DNA from: Chromera velia
Lineage: Eukaryota
NCBI GenBank assembly: GCA_018398765.1
Contig: JAHBMJ010000168.1
Span: 62,001-126,000, forward strand
Direction: 5' to 3'
DNA length: 64,000 nt
A program made the translations under genes and the position numbers. How positions within the stretch are numbered: position 1 is the first letter of the stretch; each line of letters starts with the position of its first letter. The notes beneath the pieces were generated by a model, which saw nothing but the letters and a program-made list of their open reading frames with translations, searched no databases and had not been told where the DNA came from. Of this stretch, positions 3,846 to 62,800 are shown piece by piece.

Positions 3846-4700
3846 GATTCGTGGAGGGTGAATTCCGGTCCCGGCCTTTCCATTCGTCCCTTCGCCCCGA
3901 GCCAGAGAAAGGAGCGACGTGCACGCGGCGGCCCGTTTACACGGGGTGGCGGGGCGCCTGCGACAGAGGTGTACATGTTGTGAGTTCCATGGTATGGCCT
4001 GCATACACTTTAGCGTAAGAAATACACCCGAGGCACTTACCGTGGTGGTATGTGCTCTGGGCCTTCATATGAGATTTAATTAAGCCGATGGTACGGTTAT
4101 GCCATCGGAGGCTTCAGAATTAATTCCGGTCGAATTAATTTCCAGACAGTCAGACAGACGTGCACGGCGGTTACCGTCTGTCTGAATGAGAGACTTGACC
4201 TAGGGATTGATAGAGCTTCATGTGTAGGATCTGTACTGTGCCTTATGTGTCTCTGGCATAGTGGTTCTCTTATGCTCTGAGTATTGTACGAGGCCACCAG
4301 CAGGAGCCTACTGTGGACTGTGGGGGTTCATAGATTTTCTGTCTGGTGAAGAGACTGATCAGATATTTATTTCTGATTATCTGTATTGGTCTAGACGGGT
4401 ACGTTAGGTTAATGTATTCGCTGTGGTCCTCTAATAGGAGAGAGCTAGGAATTCGAGAGTATAGCAGTTTGAAGAGTCCTCTAGATAGGCTAGAGGATCG
4501 ACACGGGAGGGCCCATAGGATTCCACTGGAGCAATCTCGAGAGAGGTGAGACTCTACTTTTCACTGGCGCCGTCACTGAGGGAGTCTCCCGTTGTCATTC
4601 TGACAACATTCCCCTTGTTGTATTCCCGATTCCCTACTGCAGGTGACATACCATAGGTTCCAAAAAAGACGCTCCCCCCGGGTGCGTCGCGATCAAGGGT

Positions 4701-7489
4701 ATGAAGGCGAAGACCGTGGGCGTCTTCGGCCTCACGGACGATGCGGACATCATCGAGTGGGTACGGCAATACGCAGATGCTGTTGCCATTCTCAGTGACT
4801 CAGACGAGTGGTGCGGTGGGCTTACCCTCACCAACAGGAACAAGATGGGGGTCAACGTCAAGCACTATGTCGCAAGGACCGAGGTGGAAGTGCTGGAGAA
4901 GGTGGTGGAACGGGTGCCCCACCTCAGTTCAGAAGTCTCTGAGCAGCTCCGGATTTTCCACAGACACGTTGTGGACTGCGTCTCTTCACCCGACGCGGAG
5001 TGGATGAAGAGATATCTGCAGCGGACTGACGTCCTGAGAATGGGCAAGGCGAGGATCATGGAAATCAGGGAGCTTCTCTCATGCCGAGAGAAGGAGAGAA
5101 TCTCTGGTCCCCAGTTAAAGTCCCTAAATGAGCAGATCCTCTACCTGCAGACTCTGAGAGAACCCTCCTCCCTCTCCCTGTCTCGCCCTGTTGTGTTGTC
5201 TTTACGTGGGGAGCTCCATGGGGGAGCTCCAACAGAGACGAAAGTGAAGACGGAGGAGGAGACGGGAGCGATACCAGACACCTCCCGTCAGATGTCCGTC
5301 CCCGTGTCCAGTGAGCAGCGTCCGGCCTCTGATGAGCGGGACCGCCGTAGCAGTAGCAGTAGTAGTAGCAGTAGCAGTTCCAGTGGGGGGGTGCAGGTAG
5401 TTGGTGTGCGACCTGACACCACCCTGGCAGAGAAGAAAAGGAAGCAGTATGAGGACCTCGTGGCGCAGATATCGGGTCTGGACGCCGAACGGGGTGCTGA
5501 AAAGCTCTGAATTCTGGAGATCCAGAAGGAGGAGAATGACGTGATGAGTGGCATGCCTAAGAGGGATAACTTTCCTAAGGGGTTTGAAGGGAAGGAGGAG
5601 TACGCATCAGAGCTGGCATCCTGGGCTGAGAAAAAAGAGGTCTTCAACGCTGGGAAGGCTGACAGGGATACGCTGGTAGCGACCGTGCAAGGTCACATCG
5701 ACCAGTTGGCGTCTGATGTGTTTCTCTAAACGAGCAAGCCGACAAACTCCGCAAGGAGATAGACGTGCTGTCTCCTCCTCCCCAGGCCAAGGGCGTCCCT
5801 GGGGGTGCTGCTGAAGGCCGCCTGCCTTCGGTATTCCAGATGACCCCCCTTACGGGTGGGGGGATGTATCCTGCAGTGTTTCCCCCTGAACCTGCGATGG
5901 TGTCTGTAGGTGGGGGGGTGCGTACTTATGATGTTGGGGCTCTGGGAGCTCCTGACATCTTCTCTTTCCTGGGAGTTAGGGAGTTGAGTGGAACTCGGGG
6001 GAGGCCGAAGTGTGACCCTGAGGATCCCCTCATCGCCTACACCCTGGAGGAGATCTTGACATCGGTCCCGAGGACCTTTGTGGAGATACGTGATAAGGTC
6101 GTGGCGATGATCTTTGCACACTTTTTCAAGACGATCCAGTATTCGACTTCTGCTCTCGTCCTGGAGTACGAGAGGATTGCCTGTAAGCCCTGTAAGTTCG
6201 AGACTTACACAGAGCTGCTGGCACATCACAAGCGTCTCCTGAACTACCTGGTTGAGGAGAACATCGTTCACGAGCTTGGCGTGAAGTATAGGCTCGGGCT
6301 CCTGACGGCGCACCTGCCGAACGACCTCATAATGAGGTAGCAGGAGAGGCAGACCCCGGTGGACCTCACCAGCGAAGTGGAGATCACCAAGGAGATCCAC
6401 GCTATCGCTGCCCAGGCGGAGACCTTTAACAAGTCTCTCGGGGATGCTTGGGACCAGGGCCTGGTTAAGGGAGCTCTCGTCGAGGACTTGAAGAGAGAAT
6501 GGGAACAGAAGGCGGCAACCTTCGGTGTGAAGGACTCGGGGGGTGCCTCGCGGGGGGGCATCATTCCAAAGGTTCCTTTCATGGCGTTCGCGGAGCCTGG
6601 TGGAGTCCCGCAGAGGAAGTCCCCTTCCAAGGCAAAGGGAGGGAAACCCTCAGGAGGAAAGACCCCTGACTTTGGCGGGAAGGGCAGGGGCAACTCCGAT
6701 CGCAGGAGGCAAGGCGGTGCTGGCGGGGGTTTCGGCAAGGGGGATGGTAGGAGGAGCTCCAATCGGGGGCGCTCTTCTGGGTCTAATTCCTCTGCTCCCT
6801 CCAGTCAATACAATGACAAGGGGGTGGAAGGAAAGGACCGTCCTCCCACTCAGGCCGTTGTCAACCCCAGGGGCCCCAACAGGAACCCCGTTCTCGATCG
6901 ATATGGTGTCCGACACCGGGATGGAACCGGATCGGATACGTTCATCGGAACTGTTACCATGGCGGGTTCTGGAGAAACTCCCATCAAACCCGGTCAGTGG
7001 GATAGAGAGTTTAGGTCTTTGTGGAACAAAGCGTGTTGGGATCCTGCCAGCAGGAAGAGCCTTCCCCATAGGTACCGCGATGGGCAGTGCCTGAGATGCA
7101 ACGGTCCGGACGGACATACAGAGTGGGGGGGCCATGGGGCCTGTCCTTGGATTCGGAAGAAGGATGGCTGCCCAGCGTATAAAACGATGGGCTATGCTCC
7201 CAACAACTGCCCTGATGAGAATGCGAAGAAGCGATAGATGATAAAGCAGATGGACAAGACCGGGCAGGACAAGGGCGGCTCCGGGGGCCGTCGCAAAGGT
7301 CCTCCGGGAGGAGGAGGCCATGGAGGCGGCTCCGGAGACCGTCGAGGGTCTTCCTATCCTGGTCGTGGGGGCGGCTCAGGGGGGAGAGGAGGCAGTGGGG
7401 GTCACAGCCATGGTGGGCGCACCCTTTCTCCTGGCAGGTTCAACAACGAGAACTTCGAGAAGAAGAACTTAGACTCCGGACAGGCGTAG
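4701..7489 (+). pseudogene. Gag-like region with a Zn-knuckle-like motif
   Basis: ORF fragments 4701-5729 and 5765-7489 are each collinear in one frame across stops. CLRCNGPDGH...C near 7088-7145 and a Gly/Arg-rich nucleocapsid-like segment. Confidence 0.6.
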
Positions 7490-8254
7490 CGGGGGGGTAC
7501 TGTCCCTCTTGTGTCCTCGCAGACTGTCGGTCCTGGGGGTCAGGACGACGATGATGGTGTCGTAGTGACGGGTGGCGTCTCATGTGGGAAGGAAGACTCG
7601 TTCAACCTGACCACCCACATGTCCAAGGGTGAGGAGAAGATCCCTCATGGGGAGGGGTCTCTCGGAAAGCTCTGCTTTGCAGACCAGCTTGGCCTCCCTT
7701 TGTGCTATGAGCCTAGAGCCAAGTACTCGCCCGACTACGACACAATGACCTTCCCTGTGTGGCATGATGGGGCTATGGAGCGCCTGTCTGCTTAAGATCC
7801 TGTTGGGACCCACACGGGGGTCGATGTATGGAGAGAAGGAGTCTGTGGAGCCTGGTAAACGCTCTTGTCTGATGAGCCTGAACGGACAGGCTTGGAATGA
7901 ATGGGGTGGGCTATCTTCCCTGCAGGTTTGGAGACTTGTATGACGGTTATGCAAGCCTTTCAGTCGGAGTTCACTGCGAGAGGAGTCCAGCGTATCAGGA
8001 ACATGATGGAGGAGCAAGACCCCCATCTCCTTGAGGTCATCTCTCGCATGTGGGGACCGGAGGACGAGACCACCATGGGTGCGGTGCCCTCTGGTTCGAA
8101 GTCTGCTGTCTACACGGTCTCCCAGTATGAGAGTGAACTGATGAACGACCCGAGCAGGACCCGGCATCGGGCTGGGTTTCCAGAAAAGTTTGAGGTCTAC
8201 AAGCTTTTGGGAAATGCGAGATCCCAGATCCCCAAGCTCGTCGAGTACAGGGCC

Positions 8255-8680
8255 TTTAAGGTCTATATTAACTCCTGTACGTTCGGGAACCTCATCTCTT
8301 AGAGGAAGGTGAGGAGCCTTATCCGTACCTTTGGGGGGCTAGATATCCCGGACTGGACGGGTTTGTTCACGGGGGGCGTTGGGGAGGAGGGTGACGGGCC
8401 CTTAGACGGGGGGCTTCCCAGGAGGACGCGGCACCAGCACTATGAGCATCTTATCACGGGACAAGATTTCATTGAGTGGAAGGTGCAGTTGGAGATGCCC
8501 CTCCAGTCATGGGGACTGGGGGATGAAGCGGTGTTCTTTTGTTCTACGGTTTTTAGCATCCGGTTCGGGACTCATGACCCCTCCGGCGCTCCCAAGAACA
8601 TTGTCATCCCATGCCTCCTCCACACGGTCGATCAGCCGAACCTCCCTGACGTGCTGATTCATAATGCTCCTGGTGCAGGT
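8255..8680 (+). pseudogene. Retroviral-type aspartic protease domain (degenerate)
   Basis: [14 protein letters not shown] resembles VLIDSGASxNFIS, with the catalytic D reading N (GAC>AAC). The downstream PDVLI resembles the protease C-terminal motif. Confidence 0.45.
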
Positions 8681-9420
8681 CTCTTCGTTCCTCGTTCTTC
8701 GCCGAAGGATGTCCTCCCTGCCTACCATGTGTGGGCGGAGAGAACGAAGGAGGAGAAGCAGATCTCACATGGGGTGAGGCTATCTATGGACCTGATATAC
8801 TAGGAGGGGATGCGACAAGGAATTCCGCAGGTTGATGTTGAGGTCATGGACACCCCCTTCAAGGTGGGGGCACCGGAGACCTGCATCATCCACAAGCCCT
8901 GGGGAGACAGACCGGACGGATACGGCCTCAACCACCTCCCTCAAGCAGTGTATGACCGCAGCCCGCACTACAAGGCCGTTCCGAACGAGTCTTTTGAGCA
9001 CTCCCTTGGGGGAGGTCCCCAAGGCGGTTCATGCGGGTACCGGTTCCAGTCACTGCAGGAGGTGCAAGACCGGTGGAACAAGGCGCAGCAGCTGAAGTAG
9101 CAGGGAAATTCCCACGAGAGGATTCCCTGAACCCCTCTCCCTGATGCGGAGAAGAAAAGGTCGGCCAAGAAGGATTTCAGAGCCTCACCCGATGGCATTG
9201 AGGTCTCTGTGGCTGCCTACCCGATCACGTATTGGGTCGTGGGTCGATGGACTGCTTCGGAGCTGGCGGACACGGACTACTGTCAGCAAGGTCCCTTTCT
9301 CGCTATGAGAAAGTTTGATGCTGGGGGCGCTGCCCTGGGGGCGCTGCCCACTTCAAACCATGGGACTACGGGTACGAACGGACGTACCTGGCTGCCTTCT
9401 CGGCCGTCTTGGTCGACCAG

Positions 9421-10149
9421 AAGCGGGAGCCGATGGCACTACACGAGGGTTACGGACATCAGAACTTCGACGATCTCAAGGAGACTCTCGCGGCTAAGGG
9501 TAATGAGATCGATGAGGACTGCAGAAGGTAGGTTTCTACGTGTCCCCTCTGTCAACTGAAGAATGCGATCACTCCGAGGATCCACAAAAGGAGTAAGCAG
9601 TTATCAGCAGATTGGAGGCCGATCAAGGGAACGGTCTGGATCGTCGATATCTGGTTCTTCAAGGACCTTTTTGCGAAGGCCGAGACAGGGGGCTTTGGAA
9701 TGATGGTGGTTCTCTACAAGCCAGGAGCCGGGTTCTCTCTGACCCACCCAGCTAAGGAGAAAGATGAGGCTTCCCTCATCGACTGCGTGCATTACTTTGC
9801 TTGCTGGCTGGGGTGTCCGCACCTAGTGTACATGGACAGAGAGAAAGCGGGAGTGGGTGCTTCCTTCCAGGCGTGGCTCCGGGGGGACGGGTCCCCCGGA
9901 CTGCACCCCATCGAGTACCGCCAGGGACCGCCGTACGTGGGTAAGGGTCTGCAGGCTCTGGTCGAGCGCTGCATTCGCAGCAATTGGGAGGGAGTGGCCC
10001 TCCTCATGTCGGACCTGAACCACCGTTTTTCCTTTGCTGTGATTCACCTCGTGGCGATCGATGGGGGAATGTTGGGGGTATTCCTGTGCGTTTTACAGAA
10101 CGGTGGGGGGCATCCCTTTTATCCTGACCTTTCGAAGAACGCCTCCTAG
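9421..10149 (+). pseudogene. Integrase (HHCC zinc finger plus DDE core)
   Basis: LHEGYGH...CPLC, then WIVDIW, VYMDRE and ALVERCIR in one frame, with a TAG at 9529. Confidence 0.85.
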
Positions 10150-12684
10150 ATGGAGAATGGATGGAGTTGCACAGAGTCATTGTGCAGTTCTTGGCTTTGC
10201 TCACGTATGATGTTGTCGTGGTCCTCCACAGGCACAAGGAGAAAAACGTTCAAGGGGAACGTTTTACCGTCCTGCAGGTCCACCCGGAACATCTATAGAC
10301 GGTCCCAGACAACCTCCTGGACAACCTCCACCTCTGGGGGGGGGCCTCGTTTCGATCAGGAAGGAACCATCCTCTTGGCTCCGGCGGGTAGAGAATAGGA
10401 GGATCCTCGACTATGGAAAACTTCTGCAAGGCAGGAGGGGGGAACAGGTGCCCGCTACCGCAGATGGGCAGGGAGAAGCGACCTTGGTCACAGAGGATTC
10501 TCTCTAGTCCTTCCGGGCACATCTCCGGTAGGATGATACGGGGGGTTGCAGCGAGGGACACAGTGGCCGGCAAGGAAATTTTCTTTCCAGCTGGCTGATG
10601 AGGGCGAAGGTATCGTAGGCTTACGGGAAGCCCCTCGCCTCACTCACCTTCGTGAGGGCCATCAGGAGATTACGAGCACGGAGGCGTAGGCGTCGGCTTT
10701 GTCATTGTCTTCCTCTGCCCTCCCCTCTGCTCTGCCTCCCTCCCTCCCACCCCCTGCTCCTGCAGAGCCCTCCGAACCCTCTCCTGCTCAAGCCGAGGCC
10801 TTGGTAAGGGAAGCGGGGGCGGCGGGCGCCCGACCATGGTTTTCCTCTCCTGTTGTGTCCAACAGGGCTTCCGTCGACTCCGGGGAGTCGCCGCTGCCAG
10901 ATTTCTTTGTCCCGCTCGGCTCCTCGATGAAGGGGACCATTCTAGACCCGTCAGGCCCTGGGGTGCTGCGCACGCCTGGCACGGTGCGGCAGCACACTCG
11001 TACTCCTTCGCGGGGAAGGAGGGTGAAGGATCCAGGCCCCGTCTTTTTCGACAAGAAGGGGAAACGTCTCCTGGGGGCCAACGGGGAGCCCCTGGGGTAC
11101 AATTGGAAAGTGGAGCGGCCGGTGTTCATGACGTACCACCGGGGGATGTATGACGCTTAGACTCGTCGTTTCGCGTTCATGCTCTACCCTAACTTGGGGG
11201 AGATCACTTAGGGAGAGGACCTGGACACCCTCAAGAACTACTTGGCTCCCCGACTGACGATGAGAGTCAAGGGGGACTCATGGAGAAGCGGGAGTGCAAC
11301 AAGGACGCAAGACGAAATCCAGAAAGCACGTGGGGTGTTCCCTGGAGACATGGGTTTCGATCTTAAGGAGAATAGCCTCAAAAAGATCATGTCACAGAAC
11401 CAGGGCGTCTACCTGCACTCGCCTCCACAGTCCCGTCGGATTGAGATCCTAGAGGGGTGGACCACTTCGATGAGTCTCCGAGTCTCCATTGCTCCCGCTG
11501 CGGCTGGAGGCAAGCGTAGGGGGCGATACTACATGCACAGGGCGCTCAAGTACTTGGACAGGCCCAAGCAGGAGTGGATCGAGGCAGACAAGGAATTGAG
11601 GGAGACAGACGGTCTGTCTCAGATTGAGCCTCCGGGAGCTGAGTATGCCTACTGGACCCCTCTGGAGGGGAAGTTCCGGACAGTCGGGCTGTCCATGGCT
11701 GTCGGCTTTCCCGAGAGGTACTACGGGTACAAGCGGATCGAGTTCCAGAACTATGTTCTTCCAAGCTCCTACGACCCGGATCTGGTGGCTGCAAGCATCC
11801 GGGCATACACGGAAGGAGGAGATCGGATGATAGAACACTTTTGGGACGTGTTCCAGGGGACAGAAAGCAACGAAAATGAAAAGGCGTGGTGCCTTATATA
11901 TGAGATGTGCTACCAGGTCAGGTACACGTTCCACAGGTCAAAGCACCACGATGACCGCTCGCGCCCCATCGTGTTCGAGAGAGAAGACCCCACGGTTGAG
12001 GTCGTCCCTCCCAAGGATCCCAGAGACAGGGTCGACAAGAACGAGGTCGGCCGCAGGGACTGAGCTTGGGAGGAGCTCTCAGATGCGTCAGTGGCAAAGA
12101 CAGGCAGAGAGAAAAGGGGAGGGGAAGGGTCTCCTCGCGCTCATTTGTCGGGTGCAGAGGATGAGGAGACTGAGGAAGACACCTTCGCTTCTGAGTCTCT
12201 GCTGTAAGGCAGATCGAGCGGGTCAGACAGAGACGATGGAGATGACGGGGGGAATCCTTCTGATGGAGATGGAGGTCACGGGGACCCTTCCCCAGACGAT
12301 TCTCCATATGACCCACCTCCAGGGGGTTATTCTGGAGGAGACTGGGGCGGGGGAACAGATGATGATGGAGGCGGAGATGGCGGGGGGGACGTTCCTCCCA
12401 GATCTTCCCAAGCTCTACATCATGGCCTCTCCGTTGGGAAGAAAGCCCGCCTCCGTCTATCTGCTCGCAGACGACCACGGAGATCGTCTGGGAGAAGGAT
12501 CTTCTCCGAGGATGACGGAGACGACGAAAGAGGGGCAGAGTCAGACTCTTCGGCCGAGAGGGGTAGAGGTGACGAGTCAGAACCGAAGGATAGGCCGATT
12601 GACCCTTCTGCGCACCCAGGGGGCGCAGATAGGTCCCGGTCCAACCAAGGAACTCCCATCCGAGAGAGGAGAGTTTTGGGTTAA

Positions 12685-12867
<183 letters not shown>

Positions 12868-53010: not shown

Positions 53011-54994
53011 AGCATGTCTGCGTAGCTATGGAGAGTGATTGCGTGTATGCAGCATTGTTTGCGTAACGTGACTGAAAGACGGCTTTGATGCTTGATAGCT
53101 AAGCTAGTAGCTTTATATATGGATGGGTACTTGAAAAGTTTGATGATACACCGATTCACATGTCATGCATTGTGCGTATATATGTGCATGCAGGTAGACT
53201 GTTGCTTCAGAGGGCAGCTTTGCTGCACCGTGAGGATCGAAGAGGCTTTTGTATTACACAACACGTATATGCAACATGCAGCCATGAAGGTCGGTTGTTC
53301 GTTCAATCAAGGCAGGCATGCCTCCAGTTCGTCCCTCCAAAAGGCACGCAGCATGCAGAGGGCTGTTGCATACATATGCACCCGCATCTGCTTTTTGCGT
53401 ACACAATTATTATTCCTCCCCTCTGAGTAGTCCGAAGCGTCATCGTCTCCACTTTCTTCCTCCTCTTCTGAGTAGTCCGAGGCGTCATCGTTGTCAACCC
53501 TGTGTACCTCAGCAGGCTGCACGGTAAACTCAATTATCGTTAGGTTTCCGTCATCATCAATGGTGTACTCAAAAGCCATCACTTGCAAGATCAGCTGGAG
53601 GAGCTGGGGATGGGCGGTTACAAGTTCATTATATTGGTTTTGGAGGTTTTCATCCACCATGACCAGTCAAAGAGTCCTGTTGGCGGCAGCTTTCGGTTTG
53701 GGTTTGGTAACTTTGCGTGTTATGTTGTGCATGCATGCAGATACCAAACACTGAAAAGGATGACCGATAGTATATGCTTATAATCGTTTCACTTTTTTAA
53801 ACACTGCGTGCTTCGTGTCGGTTTATGGTTTTTGTTCGCATTCAATTCCCCCCCTCTCCCTTTGTCTTTCAGACAATGAAAAACCAATAGCCTCGTTCTG
53901 TGTAGGAAGGTTTTATACCTACAGTTGAACCATTGTGGACCCGCTCTCTTGGTCCTAGTACCTCTTGATCTTTCGTCCATTTCGTGCCATCTAGTGCTAC
54001 TTCACCCCTACCACCCTGAAGGGCGGAGGTACCATCGTAGTCTACGGCAGACTGACGCTACTTGGACTGCTGTAGAAAGTGATGGTTTTCAGAATCGAAC
54101 CCACGACCTTTCGGTTGTGAGCTGATCTGGCATTTTTAATACAAAAGTGTTTGAACGTAACATTTTAAACATTATTAATGATTTTATATATCATATAACT
54201 TACTTACTACTTATATAGCCCCATTAGTAGAACTCGATAGTTAGTAAACAATATAGGAATAGAGTTAGGATTAATGTTTAGAAGACTTGCCTCCTGTTTC
54301 AATACTCTAACGTATGGCTTTTAAAAAAGTACTAGAACGTTTAAAACCTTCCTGACCAGCCCGTGCAGCGCGATTAGTATGTCAACTGTTACAGTTTTTC
54401 AAAAGAATATGTCGTCTTGTCTAGCGTCTTATAACAAATGCATCAAATTATGAGAATATATGTATTTAACGTTTTATAAGACACATTATATTAGAATTAT
54501 GTAATTGAATTTTTGTGTAAAACACGAGATAATTAAACTATTGTTGATTGACTGGTGCTAAACCCTAACATTGATAATAATTGTTACTTTCTTTTTATAA
54601 TTTACAGGTTAATAATATTTTTTAAGTGAGTCAGCAATCAGTCATATGAGAAAGGAATGTGTGATTCATAAGGAATACAATTATGAAACTATGAGCCCGA
54701 GTCCAATATAACGTCACACCATCGTATGAATATTGAAGGCAAGTCATTAGTACACCAGCCAACGGCGCATGAGCGCGCAAATACCAGTAATTGCAGCAAC
54801 GCTCTAATAGCCCCGGAAAGCGAAGCGTAGGGCACTCAAAAAAACACTCCGCTAGCTGATTTTGTCGGAAAGATAGGCCAGAAATACGAAATAAGGGGCA
54901 TTAAAGCACTTACAAATGAAGAGAAGAAATTAAAGCTTTCCGGGGCGGTTTGCACGCTTGCGTACGTATGTCAAGTCGGTTCGGAGAACACTAA

Positions 54995-55130
54995 CAATTG
55001 GGAGATTACCTCACATGGCAGCAGTGTACCAGCAATTGGGGGGTTATAACTCATATGGCAGCCGTGTACCATGGTTAACTCACATGGCAGCAGTGTACTA
55101 GCAATTACGGGATTAATTCACATGGCAGCA
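54995..55130. repeat. Tandem repeat x4 with core TCACATGGCAGCAGTGTAC
   Basis: Direct reading; unit length about 30-40 bp. Confidence 0.85.
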
Positions 55131-55546
55131 GCGAGCGACCGAATCAGAAGTAACTGCACGCCAGCGCGACTCCCATTATATGCAGTCAAGATGGTTATAA
55201 CGAGACCTAAGTTGGCCAGACCGTATCGCAGCATGGCTCGAGACAACCAGTGACTTTGCAATGAGCGAAACGTCTCACTTTTTTTAAACCATTCCGGCCA
55301 TAAAGGAATAAGTCGATTGTCATCCACCTCCGCAACACCACCATTAGTTTGCAAGGCTGCTGCCCAGCTGCTCATCATGCTCAGCGACGGTGCACAGGCC
55401 TCCATCTTCCTTTGCCTGCTGAGCGACTCTCAAGGTTCGTACCCTTAGTTGTAACACAGAAGCCGTCTTTTTGGTTCGTTCCCGTCTCCCACACCTGTTG
55501 TTCCCTCCATGATGCGCAGTGTACCTTTTTGACTTTCCCGTGTCTC

Positions 55547-55763
55547 CGTGTTCACTTTGCGGCTGCAGATTGGCATGAACACAAGCGACGAGCACACGGT
55601 TGAGTCTGTCGATCTCACCGATCTCACATTGCGGCTGCAGATCGGCATAAATACGAGAGACGAGCACACTGTTGAGTCTGTCAATCTCACCGTGTTCACT
55701 TTATGGCTGCAGATTGGCACAAACACGAGCGACGAGTACCCGGTTGAGTCTATTGATCTCACC
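55547..55763. repeat. 72-bp tandem repeat x3
   Basis: GGCTGCAGAT...GACGAG...GTTGAGTCT...ATCTCACCG three times; a 24-aa repeat within ORF 55445-56008 (-). Confidence 0.85.
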
Positions 55764-56029
55764 GCTCGCCGGCCGGCTTCTGTGACGTACACCTCGTCGT
55801 CATCGCTTGAAGCAAAGGAACGACTCGTGCTCTTTGCGTGGTTGTGGTCACTCTCCAAAGACAAAGAGAACTCCAGCAAGTCTGTCCTTTCTACAAATCT
55901 CAAGACGCTGATCGACCACAGATGGCAGATTACAGAGGCTGCAGAAGGTCGTAGAGTCGTTCGAACACCATGTGGCGCCGGCGAAGCGTCGCGGCGCTTT
56001 CGAAGCACATGTAAAACATGGGGCCGGTG

Positions 56030-56711
56030 ACGATGTTCAGGAGGTCCACGTACTCAAAGCGTAGGTCTTCGTCCACGGTAAGGTTCAGGTGGAATTCGGG
56101 GGATGCCGGTCCAGTCCGCGCGAGCCACAGGAGCGATACGAAGGTCCCGACCCGGAGGTGCACGGGCCGGCAGAAGTAGTGGCCAAATGCGTAGGACAGC
56201 TTTCTGTGGTCGGTTTTGTCGAGGATCACCACGGTTTTATCGAGGTCACCAAGCCCAGGAACGCGACGCACGCGTCGAGCAGCACGCGCACAATTTCCTC
56301 CTCCGCGTCCGCCTGCTGTCCGCCGCCAGCGTCGTTCGTGGCTACGTAGCACTCCGTGGCAAACTGGCAGAATGATAGGAAGCCGGCCAGTAGCAGTGGA
56401 GTCGATGGGTAACGGGGTGTCGTCGTGAGCAGGGACTCCAGTTCGGCGCGTTGCTGGTCGATGGTGGGGCGCGCGGCAACCCATTTACAGAGGGCCAGAA
56501 AAGTCGTCTCGTCGAGATGGCGCTGCAGAAGTTTGACAAGGAAGATGCCTTGCGAGTACGAAAACTCCGGCGCCAGAATATCGCACGGCTCAAAATCTTG
56601 AGCTATGGTGCTGCTCACCGGTCCGGCGGAGGCCCGTCGGCGACGGCAGAACCCGCGCACGCACAGGGTGGCCGCCGCATAGCTGCCCAGGATGGTGGAA
56701 AAGAGGATCAT
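56030..56711 (-). pseudogene. Intronless viral-like hypothetical gene, frameshifted
   Basis: ORF 56711-56226 continues in another frame (DKTDHRKLSYAFGHYF...). A short imperfect duplication, GGTTTTRTCGAGG(A)TCACC at 56212-56250, marks the shift. Confidence 0.5.
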
Positions 56712-56790
56712 CTTCTCGGCTTTTGTTTGTACTCCCGGCGTGTTGTTCGTTTTAAGTTTTTTAGTAGCACCAAATCGGCCTTGGGGTTAT

Positions 56791-56819
56791 CCCCTTAGAA
56801 AACAAAGTTTCCTAAGGGG
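56791..56819 (-). terminator. 13-bp hairpin downstream of the 222-aa gene
   Basis: Minus-strand CCCCTTAGGAAAC-TTT-GTTTTCTAAGGGG, with one G.U pair, 45 nt past the stop codon. Confidence 0.6.
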
Positions 56820-56863
56820 GGCTTTCTTACGGCTTTTCTTTTGTGCGCGTGGCGCGAGGGCGG

Positions 56864-57532
56864 TTAGTTCCCTTTTTCCTCCTCCGCTGCATATGTGGCG
56901 GCCGCCGGCGGTTTCTTCTGCTCCACTTGCTGCATCAGGCTGTTGAGGACTTCTGGCCGCACGTACTTGTTCATCAGTTCCTTTCGGAACTTGCGCATAT
57001 CCTGCACGCTCTCCGGCAGCGTCTGACCATCCGGTTTGTGGACGAAAATGCGTACATACCGAAAGACGCGCTCGTAGTCCGCCTTCTCCTCAGCTGTTCC
57101 ATTCAGTGCGACGCCTTCCTCAGCCAGCGCCTCGAGCATCACCAGATGCTTGAAGATGCAGTCGACGCACCGCTTCTGCCGGTTGTTTAGGTGGTCTTCG
57201 AGAAGAACGAACTGCTTGATGATCTCGTGGAGGTTGAAGCGGGTCTCCATGACCGGCAGCAGCTCCGGTGTCACAACGTTCTGCGCCGCGTCCCGGTAGT
57301 AGTCGTCGTTGGCACCACGCATGTTCGCCGGGAGGGACGGCGCCGGCAGATAGTACAGGTGGACGAGGACGCCCAGCGCAAGCAAGAGCAGAAGGGAGGG
57401 AAACGCCACGCGGCGGAGGAAAGACCAGTCGCCCGAGGGGCCCTGGCACCCACCTTCTTCAAGCGAACAGCTGTCATCGTCGGCATCTGCGCCGCACGTG
57501 TACCGTGCGGGAGAACGAACCATGAAACTCAT
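56864..57532 (-). CDS. 222-aa membrane-anchored CxxC protein, giant-virus-like hypothetical
   Basis: One TM segment, then LLPVMETRFNLHEIIKQFVLLEDHL...KRCVDCIFKHL...EALAEEG, which I recall (unsearched) from conserved NCLDV hypothetical proteins. Intronless, with an A-rich leader. Confidence 0.7.
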   Translation of the reverse strand: MSFMVRSPARYTCGADADDDSCSLEEGGCQGPSGDWSFLRRVAFPSLLLLLALGVLVHLYYLPAPSLPANMRGANDDYYRDAAQNVVTPELLPVMETRFNLHEIIKQFVLLEDHLNNRQKRCVDCIFKHLVMLEALAEEGVALNGTAEEKADYERVFRYVRIFVHKPDGQTLPESVQDMRKFRKELMNKYVRPEVLNSLMQQVEQKKPPAAATYAAEEEKGN

Positions 57533-57589
57533 TGGTTTTTTTCTATTTTCTTACTCCTTGCTGCGGCTGCCGCCCGCTCTTTATTGTTG

Positions 57590-59107
57590 TTAGTAGAGCA
57601 TGCCGTCGGGGGTCAAAACAAGCCCGAAAAAAGTCGCTAGTGCCACCATCAATAGCGTGTATACAACACTGCTAAACACCTTAACGCCCATCATCGAGGC
57701 GGTAAGTGTTACCAACGAAGCGACGATTATCCCTACAGCAGCTCGTAGCGTAAGGTTTCCTACCATGCGCATGCTCTGCTGGACCTGTGTACAAATTAAG
57801 TGTGACTGTTGGGCCGGGAGGGGTTTCTTGACAGCCAGCGTGGCTGCCATAATACTAATCAGGGCTTGTACCAGTCTCAGGAGCAACACGTTGATGAGGT
57901 CACGAGGAGACATGCTTGAAAGCGCACCATACAGCTCGCTGCCGTACCTGGTGACCCAACGGATGAGTTTGCTGATGAGCGTAAAGAGCTGCACAGCGGG
58001 AATCGCCAAGAACTTCAGCAGCGACAGTGTTATTCCGAAGAAGCGGAAGATGTGCACCATCCAGCGAAACGGGGTGGATGTGGTAACAACGCGGATAAAC
58101 CAGTCGATGCCGAGATACTTTATGACCCGTTTATGGACGCTCGCAAGCGACTCGCTGGCAATCTCCTTCAGGTTGCTGAACAACGCCGTCATGAAGATAG
58201 CCAATCCTCCATACTTGAAAAGGAACCCCCCGATGATGGGGATCTGACCGACGGCAAACAGACTTCCTACGAGAAAAACCACGGGGAAGAGGGCCTTTAG
58301 CATAGGCGGAAAGAGGTTCAACAATCGCCGGAAGAGCGCTCCTGAGACTCCGGTGCCACTCATCAGGGACGCTAGCCGGTACATCATCACCAGCGGGTAG
58401 ACCGTAACGGTGTTGCCGTATTTCCGTATGACGATTTTTCTTTCTGCCTCGACGGCCTCGCCCATGAGCTGCCAGTAGTAGGGCGACGGTGCGTTCGCGT
58501 GGTCTTTCAAATACTGCAGCCGCACCTTCTGAAAGATCCTCTTGGCTTGCCGTTCCTCGATAAATCCCGAGAAGGACGCCGACTTACGTTCCCTGCGTTC
58601 CGCGCTCAGGTGCCCAACCTTCGGGTCGTCTGTGAATTTGGCGAAGAGGTCCGCCAGCAGCAGGCGATCCTTGGCCGGAATGGGTTCTCCCTTCGGCCGC
58701 GCACAGTCGGCGGCCTCCATGAGTTTTTGTACCAGAGCCTCCGCTTTGGCGGTCCCGCTCGATCTTGTGCTGCGGAAGGAGGCGCTGCCAGACTTGGACC
58801 ACGAGGGGGCGCTGCAGAACGCATCCTCGCCTACGCTGTGGGCGCTGCGGAACGTCTTTTTAGTGGACGAAGACGATACTCTACGGGCGCACACGCCGTC
58901 CTTGCACTCATATTTTGCAGAACTTTTCCGTTTTTTTAATGACAACAAGGGGGCCTCGGCCCTTTTCTTGCTGCTTGTGGTAGGCGCCACCGTCTTCTTC
59001 CTGTTGTTACCGATGGGCGCCACTGCCGCGGCCAACCCCTGCAGTGGCTTCTTTTTGCTGTGTCGTGTGGCTTTATTCTTTGTTTGACTGCTGGTGGTCC
59101 TCCACAA
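57590..59107 (-). CDS. 505-aa hypothetical protein with a basic N-terminus and multi-TM C-terminal half
   Basis: Long uninterrupted non-repetitive ORF ending 57 nt from the next gene. The called start is TTG, so the true start is uncertain. Confidence 0.7.
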   Translation of the reverse strand: MWRTTSSQTKNKATRHSKKKPLQGLAAAVAPIGNNRKKTVAPTTSSKKRAEAPLLSLKKRKSSAKYECKDGVCARRVSSSSTKKTFRSAHSVGEDAFCSAPSWSKSGSASFRSTRSSGTAKAEALVQKLMEAADCARPKGEPIPAKDRLLLADLFAKFTDDPKVGHLSAERRERKSASFSGFIEERQAKRIFQKVRLQYLKDHANAPSPYYWQLMGEAVEAERKIVIRKYGNTVTVYPLVMMYRLASLMSGTGVSGALFRRLLNLFPPMLKALFPVVFLVGSLFAVGQIPIIGGFLFKYGGLAIFMTALFSNLKEIASESLASVHKRVIKYLGIDWFIRVVTTSTPFRWMVHIFRFFGITLSLLKFLAIPAVQLFTLISKLIRWVTRYGSELYGALSSMSPRDLINVLLLRLVQALISIMAATLAVKKPLPAQQSHLICTQVQQSMRMVGNLTLRAAVGIIVASLVTLTASMMGVKVFSSVVYTLLMVALATFFGLVLTPDGMLY

Positions 59108-59352
59108 TGTTTTTCTTCTTTAGTGCCTGGCTTGCGAGTACGGTGTATAAAGTTTCTGCATAAGTTTTTACTATTATATACGTAGGTGTTTTTTGGTGGC
59201 AGGCAGGGGTGTGCATGCGCATTAATTTGTCAGGTCCGTAAACTACCTTAAACGAATTTATTAAGGTGTTTCCTAAGGGGGCTCCCCTGGCACCATCCTT
59301 AGCTGCATAACACCGCTTTTTTTTGTGCACTGCCCAAGGAAGATTAACTCAT

Positions 59353-59895
59353 TTACGTGGATTTTTTGTTGCAGTCCCCTCCACCGGCAGCAGCTGCGGC
59401 GGCGGCGGCGGCAACGGGCGGGTCATCGGACCCGTCGGTGGTGGGCACACTTCGGGTCAGGAGGTCGAAGTACAAGGTGTTTTCCAAGCTGGCGTGCGCC
59501 ACTTTTGGCCACGCCTCCTGTACGTCTTTCAGCCTGATTGATTTAGTGCCACTGACGAAAGGCTTCCAGAAGTTTTTGACCAGAATGTCCAGCAGCCCCG
59601 GCACGTTTGTCGTTTCTGCCATGAGCAACGCAAGGACCTCTTTAGTGAGGCGCCGGAAATGGACGCATCTTTTCCCCTGCACTGCATAGCTTGGTGTCGG
59701 TGCGAAGTCGGTCCCCAACAAGAAATGGCTCAAAAGCTGCCGGCCGGCGTCGGAAAGTCCGATCTGGAGCCGCTCTTTCAGTCCGAGCAGTTTCTCCCAC
59801 ACGGTCACCAGGTGGTTATTCTGCAGATGTTGGTCGACAAAGGCCGGCGTCACCAACACCTGTAGCAGTTGTGTGAGGAAGTTTTCGAACTGTTC
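59353..59895 (-). CDS. 5'-truncated hypothetical gene at the island edge
   Basis: Open frame with no ATG near its start; the sequence changes to host-like composition near 59900. Confidence 0.55.
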   Translation of the reverse strand, partial: EQFENFLTQLLQVLVTPAFVDQHLQNNHLVTVWEKLLGLKERLQIGLSDAGRQLLSHFLLGTDFAPTPSYAVQGKRCVHFRRLTKEVLALLMAETTNVPGLLDILVKNFWKPFVSGTKSIRLKDVQEAWPKVAHASLENTLYFDLLTRSVPTTDGSDDPPVAAAAAAAAAGGGDCNKKST

Positions 59896-62800
59896 TGACA
59901 GGGTATGATCGTTTCATGTCTGCTAGGCACTTCAGCTAGTCAGCTTCGCACTGAGTCTCCCTCGTCCACTATTGACTATACCTGTTAAGAGAAAAGCAAA
60001 AGAAACCTGAATGAAGAGGGGCGACGGCTAGGGCCACGGTTTGTTCAGTCGATCGTCATGCGAAACACACGAGGGGAAAGGTCTGGGACGATCGTCAGTC
60101 AAGCACACTAACCAGCCATCCAGAGCCGAGTAAGAGAGAGGGGGGAAGAGAGAGAGATAGAGACTTAGCAATAGGAGTCACAAATCAAGATCTCGCCCTA
60201 TCGCATGACATTGTCTCACTTCTTACCCTTCATTCAGAGGATTCCAAAGAGGCAGAGGGAGGCGAAGAAGAAGAGGAAGAAGAAGAACTTGAAGAAGAAG
60301 AAGAAGAAGACGTCTCGTTGTCTCCCCCCTCGGTCTTGCTCTCCTTTCTGGATGGACCAGGTGAGGTTGAATCAAACGACATTGGAAGGAGAAGGAGGCG
60401 AAGTGGCAGGGGAACAATGTCATCACACCATTGTGGGCAGCCCGATCCAGTCCCAGGAAACCCGGCCGATATATATGCAGACACAAGTGGTCATGCAGGC
60501 ATAAATGTCGGCAGAAAGAAAGCTGACCATGATAAAAAATGTTGAAGACTCGCAGGTCATACCAAGAGGGATGATTGAAGAATCTGAGTTTTCTGCAGAC
60601 ACTATATCTTTTTTGCACTCATTATGAGCAATGCATCTTGCACAGAATTTCGGCTTTCAGTATAGTACGGACAAAGAACTAAACCAAATGAGAACGTGCA
60701 CCCAACAACAGAGATCGACGCAGCCGTTAGGCAAAAGGTGCATGTGTAAAAGAGGATGTGTTTCCCATGCGCAGTGCAGCCCCACTCCCAACCCCTCCGC
60801 GACTCTCCCTTCAGTCGATCGAATGAACGAAGGACGAAGTACAGTGAAGCGGCCTATACCTACAACCAGAGGACACCGACAGCATACGGACTCCCGATTG
60901 TCTGGACCGGGCCTCGCTACTGCAAAGCGCCCCCCCACCCCCAAGCGGATGCCCCGATAGTGGACCGACCATGCATGCATGCAGAGAATTAAGTAAACGC
61001 CCCAAAACAAAAAGAGTTTCACTTGTGCCTTTCGAAGACTCACCCACTGATATTCACTTATGCGGGTAGGCAGTTTGATCAATTGGTGACTGGCTCCCTG
61101 CACGCTCGATCGATTTCACAAGGAAGCGAGGAGAACAGATATTCTATAATAATTTGAGAAACATATGCAGGAACTGACCGCGTTTCGATGATCTTTGGGT
61201 CAATGTGGGGGCGCTGCACGGAAAAAGCGCATAAATCAGTGAAAGAAGGTATTTGTTTCATTAAATTTGGTCAGAAAATTGATTTTCATTAACACAAAAC
61301 TCACAGATAAGGATACAAGCAATGGCCAGCCTGAGGGGGATCAATGATATGAGAGCAGAAGATACAAACTCTTTGGACCGAACACCCCCCTCAATTCTTA
61401 TAGAGCAAACATAACAGAAGGTAAACGCTCTGAGAGCAGAAATTTGATCCGAGGCAGATTTCTCTACCCCACCAACTTGAAGCATCCCCACTGACTTTGG
61501 TTCTGTAGATGAGCTTCTGGGTCTCTGCCCAAGAGAGAGCAGCGATGGAAGAGAACGTGCTGTTTTCATCAGGGACCCCCCCGGGATAACCAGAACTTGT
61601 CGGCCTAGGGATAACCAGAACTCTGGTCCCTGTCGAATCAACAGTCCGAGTAGGCAAGCGAGCGTTCCATGAATAAAGACGATCGATCGAGAGACTTGGG
61701 CACAGGGGAGAGAGTGCAAACGTAACACATATAGAGAAAGAGGGGTGTCCAACCACACTTGCTCTCCAAGTCTACGTCTTTCATCGAAAGTATCTTTCTT
61801 GCAGGACTGATATCTACATGCTCTCAAAGATGATGGCACATGCATGTAAATTTATTGACAGAGCACTGCCTCAATCGGCCGACCTTCTACTGACCTCTGT
61901 TCTGCGAAGATGGTTTCGGAGGAGCAGGAGAAAGGATGGCCGGAAGGATTAATGAGCCTCGCCGCTGAAGTCCATGGTGCACCTGCCCTTGTCTCTGTCT
62001 CTGTGCTGCGGGTGCGGGGGGCTGCAGTCGGCTGTTCGGGTCGTGGGTGTGGCTGTTGTCGGCGTACAGCGGCGGCATGTCGAACGGGGCGGGGGTGAAG
62101 GTGTTGTTGGGTTGTGAGGACTGCGACTGGGACTGGGACTGAGTGGAGACCACTGAGGCTGTGCCCTTGGATCTGTGGAGCACAAAGAGCGAAGGGGGGC
62201 AGGAGGATTGCGTAAACGAACACTCTAGCTGCCAAAGTGACTGATGTGCGAAGCTACAAAAGTGCAATAAGGAGAAGAGAAAACAGGAGGATTACCTAGA
62301 GGATTGCACGGGAGTTGGAGCCATCACTGGCGCGAGACATTCTAAAAGCAAGGAAAACTGACATGACAGTAGGTTTGATCGCGGGCTTGGACTGCTCGGA
62401 GGCGGTGACATCCGTCACTCTGTCTGCACAACCAGAAGCGGGCAAGCAAGGAGCCGCAGGAAGAGATACTGTATGATCGACATGTGACGACACAAAAGAG
62501 AGAAAAGGGATCAAACGAAGAAAAAAAAAGAGTCACAGGGAGAATGAGCTTGCAAAAAGATACACTGTACTTGAATGGAGGGGAATTCAATATAGAGCGA
62601 AAGCGTTTCTCATGTCTGCATGCAGCTGCTTTGACAAAACATCCAAAAATGATATACCGTGCAGCTTTAGTCCCATAACGGTCTCAATTGCCGTGATAAT
62701 ATGGTTTTCCACACTCCTGGGGGGTGCGGGGAAGGGTGCGTTCACGTGTCCTATCCAGAATTCCTAAATCGTGTACAGCCACCATTGCGTGTCCTTGAGG

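What the first reader, a model, noticed from the sequence alone, without database searches (positions are those of the whole stretch)
56030..59900. Probable endogenous giant-virus (NCLDV) fragment
Seen: four tightly packed, co-oriented, intronless, microsatellite-free, CpG-rich genes with short A-rich spacers, unlike the intron-rich host genes. One is frameshifted and one is cut at the edge. The 222-aa protein carries an FNLxEIxKQxxLLEDHL...RCxDCxxKH motif that I recall from giant-virus hypothetical proteins. No hallmark gene (capsid, PolB, A32) is present, so the assignment is inference. It could record an unknown virus of this host lineage.
Basis: partly seen in the sequence, partly recalled or inferred. 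Interest (0 to 1): 0.8.

Follow-up and report, generated by a model that had tools for sequence, protein, structure and literature searches.

The report
Giant-virus remnant in chromerid alga genome
A single-copy 4-kb block of four intron-free genes is built into a chromosome of the alga Chromera velia, a relative of malaria parasites; one gene has relatives almost only on giant-virus and huge-phage DNA, so the block is likely a decaying remnant of an uncharacterised giant virus that met this lineage.

Summary
Observation confirmed, with corrected ends (about 55,930-59,917). Four minus-strand, intron-free reading frames share a codon pattern, and CpG o/e is 1.04 against 0.70±0.06 elsewhere in the window. 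The host is Chromera velia: UniRef Cvel_2928 fuses two of the genes. One contig without mismatches spans the block and both junctions in two DNA runs, at single-copy depth, so it is integrated, not a contaminant. Only gene C (222 aa) has homologues: 270 loci in IMG/VR, uncharacterised proteins of Fadolivirus, Yasminevirus and Tetraselmis virus 1, and huge phages. In GTDB it hits only 12 MAG contigs. Its membrane anchor and tree position match giant-virus forms; a phage origin is not formally rejected (p=0.09). Genes A, B and D have no detected homologues. D is frameshifted, A lacks an in-frame start and B likely carries an early stop. There is no hallmark gene, integrase or terminal repeat, and the viral order is unresolved (Pimascovirales is a lean only). 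Verdict: a new member of a known kind (degraded giant-virus endogenous element), in a host group for which my searches found no such report.

The parts
59353..59917 (-). Gene A remnant: 186-aa open frame 59913-59353 with no in-frame start at its 5' end; an ATG at 59917-59915 is one base out of frame (5'-truncated or frameshifted). No homologue found.
   Evidence: searches
57590..59161 (-). Gene B: 376-aa ORF from ATG 58720 with five hydrophobic segments. A basic K/S/T-rich in-frame extension reaches an ATG at 59161 across an in-frame TAA at 59122-59120 (likely nonsense lesion; codon signal of the extension is ambiguous). Only hit is its own gene model.
56864..57532 (-). Gene C, intact, 222 aa: N-terminal membrane helix (37-61) plus a predicted four-helix bundle with the motif EDH-x7-CxxC-x3-H; unnamed family of giant viruses and huge phages
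56791..56819 (-). 13-bp-stem hairpin 45 nt after the stop of gene C; possible viral 3'-end signal (inferred)
   Evidence: z -2.8; 2 of 200 shuffles as stable; 1 of 5 stretches folded was significant
55930..56711 (-). Gene D, frameshifted near 56260: first frame 161 aa (stop 56226), second frame to stop 55930. No homologue found.
   Evidence: searches
55894..55929 (.). Left junction zone, between the stop of D and the end of similarity to a multicopy host sequence
   Evidence: paralogous contigs end at 55868-55893; contig 55807-60084 bridges it
59918..59993 (.). Right junction zone; host-like sequence matched by other contigs begins at 59994
55090..55893 (+). Left flank, host: diverged copy of a multicopy family whose paralogues appear in RNA-type runs with GT..AG joints; holds three 72-bp tandem units

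Best explanation
A 4-kb, single-copy block of four intron-free genes is integrated in a Chromera velia chromosome and is likely a decaying fragment of a giant virus (Nucleocytoviricota) genome. Shown: integration, single copy, composition unlike the host, virus-restricted relatives for gene C, a frameshift in D. Inferred: viral DNA from an infection or ingested virion was joined into a repeat-rich host site by ordinary break repair, because there is no integrase, terminal repeat or target-site duplication; or this is the eroded rest of a larger insert. It cannot replicate or package itself and is likely drifting, with lesions in up to 3 of 4 genes. It is likely recent enough to have kept viral CpG and codon bias. 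Gene C would encode a membrane-anchored four-helix bundle whose invariant His/Cys-x-x-Cys/His cluster likely binds a metal or forms a redox disulfide, probably a virion-associated protein (inferred from the head-gene neighbourhood of its phage relatives).
For: Contig 55807-60084 with 0 differences in runs X1 and X2 of two studies; depth 25.7 against 30.5-31.5 for flanking single contigs in X1, and 15.6 against 13.8-17.3 in X2. CpG o/e 1.04 against a maximum of 0.84 in 210 windows. Shared codon pattern, GC3 0.70-0.79. Gene C: 270 of 347 candidate stretches in IMG/VR confirmed, including GVMAG contigs. The 3 Foldseek hits at E<=1e-3 are Fadolivirus, Yasminevirus and Tetraselmis virus 1. 12 of 53 candidates in GTDB, all MAG contigs. 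Nearest rows are P0001/P0003 (93/94), then L002, P0002, P0004, L013, L114 (84/93). L002 is a 505-kb contig with EsV-1-7 repeats, DUF2738, a cyclin-kinase fusion and LRR proteins, listed in UniRef as viral metagenome. L013 has NCLDV capsid and VLTF3 genes beside the homologue. An N-terminal membrane helix is present in 7 of 7 nearest relatives but in 1 of 11 phage-type rows. Island pattern as described for Acanthamoeba (PMC12210455, passages).
Against: Only 1 of 4 genes has homologues, so A, B and D are viral by association only. No hallmark gene is in the block, and the rest of the genome could not be searched. The family is also in huge phages next to head protease and major head genes, and the AU test does not reject a phage grouping (p=0.092). 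The window row is a long branch (1.24) with no starred clade in the careful tree, on 110 columns. The contigs behind the two nearest proteins (P0001, P0003) are 2-3.5 kb and were not seen. X1 or X2 may be the strain or sample of the assembly.
Confidence: 0.8

Rival explanations
1. The block came from a huge tailed phage or a bacterium carrying one, taken up by the alga.
For: The gene C domain is common in huge phages beside HK97-type head genes (6 of 11 loci sampled show the head protease; LR745208.1). AU test p=0.092. 12 MAG contigs hit.
Against: Nearest relatives and the membrane-anchored architecture are giant-virus type. A, B and D have no match in 50,697 phage records, and PHROGs gives nothing.
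Confidence: 0.06
2. Only gene C is viral (single-gene transfer); A, B and D are host orphan genes or parts of a host mobile element.
For: No homologue for A, B or D in any search. A second contig in X1 resembles 59033-59090 at 80% or more, so part of B's 5' region occurs elsewhere in the genome.
Against: All four share orientation, GC3 and codon pattern and high CpG unlike four host exons and the retroelement (0.64-0.78). No transposase, terminal repeats or target-site duplication.
Confidence: 0.07
3. Fragment of another eukaryotic DNA virus group (mirusvirus, polinton-like) that had picked up gene C.
For: No hallmark gene; three ORFans; the family crosses virus realms.
Against: Every classified eukaryotic-virus carrier I could look up is Nucleocytoviricota (8 of 12 GVMAG ids found in the table, all 8). 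No terminal inverted repeats.
Confidence: 0.04
4. Assembly chimera or free virus/contaminant in the culture.
For: The assembly is fragmented (N gaps nearby), only contigs and no raw reads were laid, and no listed piece spans the repeats beyond 55807 and 60084.
Against: One mismatch-free contig carries 87 bp of the left host repeat and 91 bp of right host-like sequence, in two studies, at host single-copy depth in both. The gene lesions do not fit a live virus.
Confidence: 0.03

Closest known systems
Degraded giant-virus 'islands' in Acanthamoeba (PMC12210455; passages read)
   Same: Small clusters where a recognisable viral gene sits among intron-poor ORFans and pseudogenes, near repeats, without terminal repeats
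   Different: Host is an alveolate alga; donor lineage unidentified; methylation and silencing not tested here
Giant endogenous viral elements of green algae, Amoebidium (PMC11244446, listing only), brown-algal phaeovirus proviruses (PMC11890097, listing only)
   Same: Nucleocytoviricota-type DNA inside a host chromosome
   Different: Those are far larger and carry hallmark genes (sizes recalled); this is 4 kb with none and no integrase
Uncharacterised proteins A0A7D3R2N5 (Fadolivirus), A0A5K0UBM3 (Yasminevirus), A0A2P0VP56 (Tetraselmis virus 1)
   Same: Best structural matches of gene C, E 3e-7 to 1e-5
   Different: 24-27% identity; grouping with Mimiviridae (IM_16) GVMAG rows is rejected (p=0.019)
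Pimascovirales GVMAG families PM_06 and PM_01 (PMC8575486, supplement 1 rows)
   Same: PM_06 genome GVMAG-S-1029409-49 (L160/L181) is the nearest classified carrier in the FastTree (support 82) and has the membrane anchor
   Different: Support is weak; PM_01 forms lack the anchor (0 of 7); L013, whose capsid is closest to PBCV-1 in PDB, joins the near group in the careful tree

Membership tests
Endogenous Nucleocytoviricota element | Physically joined to host DNA at host copy number | tested here: met
   one contig over both junctions in two runs, depth close to flanks
Endogenous Nucleocytoviricota element | Genes whose closest relatives are in giant viruses | tested here: met
   gene C only; 1 of 4 genes
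Endogenous Nucleocytoviricota element | Dense intron-free genes, composition unlike host | tested here: met
Endogenous Nucleocytoviricota element | Hallmark gene (capsid, PolB, A32, D5, VLTF3) inside the element | tested here: not met
   Pfam scan of the ORFs, no family at cut-off
Endogenous Nucleocytoviricota element | Hallmark genes elsewhere in the host assembly | not testable with these tools
   no whole genome held
Pimascovirales | Phylogenetic placement by marker genes | tested here: inconclusive
   no marker gene; gene C tree leans to PM_06/L002 with weak support, L013 conflicts
Complete provirus / giant endogenous viral element | Near-complete genome with integrase or recombinase and intact genes | tested here: not met
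   4 kb, four genes, up to three lesioned
Polinton / polinton-like virus / DNA transposon | Terminal inverted repeats, target-site duplication, pPolB, integrase or transposase | tested here: not met
   junction k-mer matches at chance level
Erv1/Alr sulfhydryl oxidase (considered for gene C) | PF04777 match or Erv fold with CxxC and FAD site | tested here: inconclusive
   no Pfam match; only generic four-helix bundles in the top 50, Z up to 10.8, rmsd 3.3, 100 aligned

The most novel reading that the evidence does not exclude
This is the genomic footprint of an undescribed, GC-rich giant-virus lineage, near the uncultured Pimascovirales families, that infects chromerids, the photosynthetic sister group of apicomplexan parasites. 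Further remnants lie elsewhere in the genome (a second diverged copy of part of gene B is seen). Its one recognisable gene defines an unnamed His/Cys four-helix virion domain shared between giant viruses and huge phages.
Probability: 0.35. Interest if true: 0.62.

Novelty: new member of a known kind. Interest (0 to 1): 0.42.

Why it matters
Hosts of most metagenomic giant viruses are unknown, and endogenous fragments are one of the few direct links. This one ties a giant-virus gene block to Chromera velia; eight searches of the held library listed no paper on such an element in chromerids. It gives probes (three ORFans and one conserved gene) to look for the virus in reef metagenomes, and it flags gene model Cvel_2928 as a likely false fusion of two viral genes. 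The phenomenon itself is well known, the piece is small and broken, and uptake of DNA does not prove infection.

Tried and rejected
No RNA holder was listed. Five RNA-type runs of the same species label (X5, X7; X6, X8, X9) laid no contig on 55943-59866 while covering the flanking repeat; these are contigs of guessed type, so this is not used as evidence of silencing. Gene A: nothing in Pfam, PHROGs, NCBIfam, IMG/VR, phages or 194 loci; it was never run against the large protein collection. Gene B: only its own model; nothing; best locus hit E 0.02, rejected. Gene D: nothing (first frame, longer proteins only); single-sequence model pLDDT 54 with no match. The HMMER scan of 1.84 billion representatives never ran, so the lack of homologues for A, B and D is weak. 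ESM Atlas was blank for B and C. PDB sequence and Foldseek searches were blank for C. No Erv1/Alr chain was among the 50 VIA-align rows. Hairpins after A, B and D were not significant. A target-site duplication was rejected: two 7-mer matches seen, direct and inverted together, against about 1.2 expected per orientation. The joint 54827-60969 in X1 was set aside as a repeat artefact, since both sides are short multicopy motifs. Capsid search in the records behind five loci was not possible. L002 was not found in the taxonomy table. Earlier-finding look-ups were empty.

Full report
Observation. The sequence and ORF lists show four minus-strand frames: A (59913-59353), B (58720-57590, with an open extension to 59119), C (57532-56864) and D (56711-55930, two frames). 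CpG o/e of 56030-59900 is 1.04; 210 same-sized windows outside it average 0.70 (sd 0.06, maximum 0.84), and four host exons and three retroelement frames give 0.64-0.78. A codon-position model trained on the other genes picks the proposed frame of six for A, B, C, D1 and D2, but not for B's extension. A has an ATG one base out of frame at 59917-59915, and B's extension reaches an ATG at 59161 across an in-frame TAA. Freedom from microsatellites discriminates poorly: one 15-bp run lies inside, and 57 of 210 control windows have none.

Host. The only hit for B is UniRef A0A0G4F8N4, Chromera velia CCMP2878 Cvel_2928. It is identical to B residues 1-288 joined to C residues 17-222 through a predicted intron. 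As C's nearest relatives are stand-alone 143-186-aa proteins, this model is likely a false fusion (inference). No whole genome was held. The rest of the window is host-like: by my reading of the translations, a retrotransposon, a P-type ATPase and others (labels recalled).

Integration. Of 11 runs listed, two DNA runs of two studies hold 96% of the words. In both, one 4,278-base contig covers 55807-60084 with no mismatch or gap. Its depth is 25.7 against 30.5-31.5 for neighbouring single contigs in X1, and 15.6 against 13.8-17.3 in X2. It includes 87 bp of a multicopy host sequence on the left (paralogues end at 55868-55893) and 91 bp from 59994 on the right, where other contigs match. The junctions and the lesions are therefore real and the block is single-copy. 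These are contigs, not raw reads, and one run may be the assembly's own strain. At 80% likeness a second X1 contig matches 59033-59090, and its loose end still resembles the window: a diverged piece of B's 5' region lies elsewhere. No terminal repeats or target-site duplication were found.

Gene C. 16 of 393 candidates are homologues at 38-65% identity. With their alignment, 270 of 347 candidate stretches in IMG/VR were confirmed and 80 kept; a narrower alignment added 80 of 90 metagenome loci and 37 viral loci. GTDB gave 12 of 53 candidates, all MAG contigs. Pfam, PHROGs and NCBIfam name nothing. The model (pLDDT 75, 17 rows) has a membrane helix at 37-61 and a four-helix bundle; Foldseek's three hits at E<=1e-3 are uncharacterised proteins of Fadolivirus, Yasminevirus and Tetraselmis virus 1. 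PDB gives only generic bundles. EDH-x7-CxxC-x3-H is kept in 153 of 157 distinct domains (rows without the LEDH-type anchor would have been dropped, none was reported). A metal or disulfide site is inferred, not shown.

Which virus. The family has two habitats. Giant viruses: of 12 GVMAG ids looked up in supplement 1 of PMC8575486, 8 were found: 5 Pimascovirales PM_01, 1 PM_06, 2 Mimiviridae IM_16. Neighbouring genes include DUF2738, Erv1/Alr, PCNA and RING proteins, and NCLDV capsid and VLTF3 at L013. Huge phages: 6 of 11 loci sampled have a head maturation protease nearby, 3 also the major head protein, and LR745208.1 (485 kb) matches. In three trees the window protein groups with P0001 and P0003, then L002, P0002 and P0004. 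L002 is a 505-kb contig with giant-virus-type genes (19 of 32 ORFs scanned) and a UniRef 'viral metagenome' label. In the careful tree (42 chosen rows of 157, 110 columns) the branch is long and no starred clade holds it. The AU test rejects grouping with four IM_16-type rows (p=0.019) but not with 11 phage-type rows (p=0.092). The groups were named after earlier trees were seen, and only some rows have a verified label (L084 was grouped with PM_06 by tree position alone). The membrane anchor is present in 7 of 7 nearest relatives, 2 of 2 PM_06-side, 4 of 4 IM_16-type, 0 of 7 PM_01-type and 1 of 11 phage-type rows. A giant-virus donor is thus the best reading. Pimascovirales is only a lean: L002's gene set recalls pitho/irido-like viruses (from memory), while L013, whose capsid is closest to PBCV-1, joins the near group in one tree.

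Genes A, B, D. No homologue was found in any search (see Tried and rejected), but the most sensitive search never ran and A was not tried against the large collection. They are viral by association: same strand, codon pattern and CpG. A 13-bp hairpin follows C (1 of 5 stretches significant), like the 3'-end hairpins of mimivirus genes (recalled).

Mechanism. Shown: a single-copy, non-autonomous block with lesions, next to a host repeat. Inferred: capture of viral DNA by host break repair, or erosion of a larger insert, followed by drift. This is the course described for Acanthamoeba (PMC12210455, passages on islands, ORFans, pseudogenes and silencing). Expression could not be judged.

Literature. 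Searches pairing Chromera or chromerid with NCLDV, Nucleocytoviricota, giant virus, Pimascovirales, mirusvirus or virus-like particles (listings only) showed no paper on such an element. The main texts of PMC5294986, PMC10120064 and 10.1101/2025.04.19.649669 do not contain the word Chromera (passages only). I did not see their supplements; the last lists 781,111 viral regions in 7,103 assemblies and could include this genome. Subscription papers are not in the library.

Verdict. Its value is the host link and the unnamed gene C family. Interest 0.42.

Noticed in passing
gene C family; L026, L028, L074, L064, L008, L076, L178: The unnamed EDH-x7-CxxC-x3-H domain is shared by giant viruses and huge phages; in phages it lies near head protease and major head genes and is often fused into 340-2,170-aa proteins. 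No Pfam, PHROG or NCBIfam model covers it.
   Followed up: partly
window 57590-58720 and 56864-57487: Gene model Cvel_2928 (UniRef A0A0G4F8N4) joins B and C through a predicted intron; likely a false fusion.
   Followed up: partly
window 59033-59090: A second contig in run X1 matches here at 80% or more with host-like sequence on one side: a possible second viral remnant elsewhere in the genome.
   Followed up: no
window 56802-56821 and 59263-59282: The A-B and C-D spacers share a 13-14 bp motif (D5) that forms one arm of the hairpin after C; possible viral regulatory signal.
   Followed up: partly
window 54810-54843: A 34-bp element with very high summed depth (bin depth 1,458 in X1) and many different flanks: a short, highly repeated host element.
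   Followed up: no
window 55090-55893: Multicopy host family with 72-bp tandem units and variable GT..AG joints among paralogues in RNA-type runs.
   Followed up: no
window about 4650-14940: Broken LTR-retrotransposon-like element (integrase- and reverse-transcriptase-like frames by my reading, recalled labels).
   Followed up: no
window 45000-46000 and 54000-55000: AT-rich stretches with CpG o/e 1.1 like the insert, but unrelated to each other by blastn and without long ORFs.
   Followed up: partly
L050:11457-12371: A CRESS-type Viral_Rep gene (PF02407, E 7e-13) on a 22-kb contig with tail-fibre-like genes.
   Followed up: no
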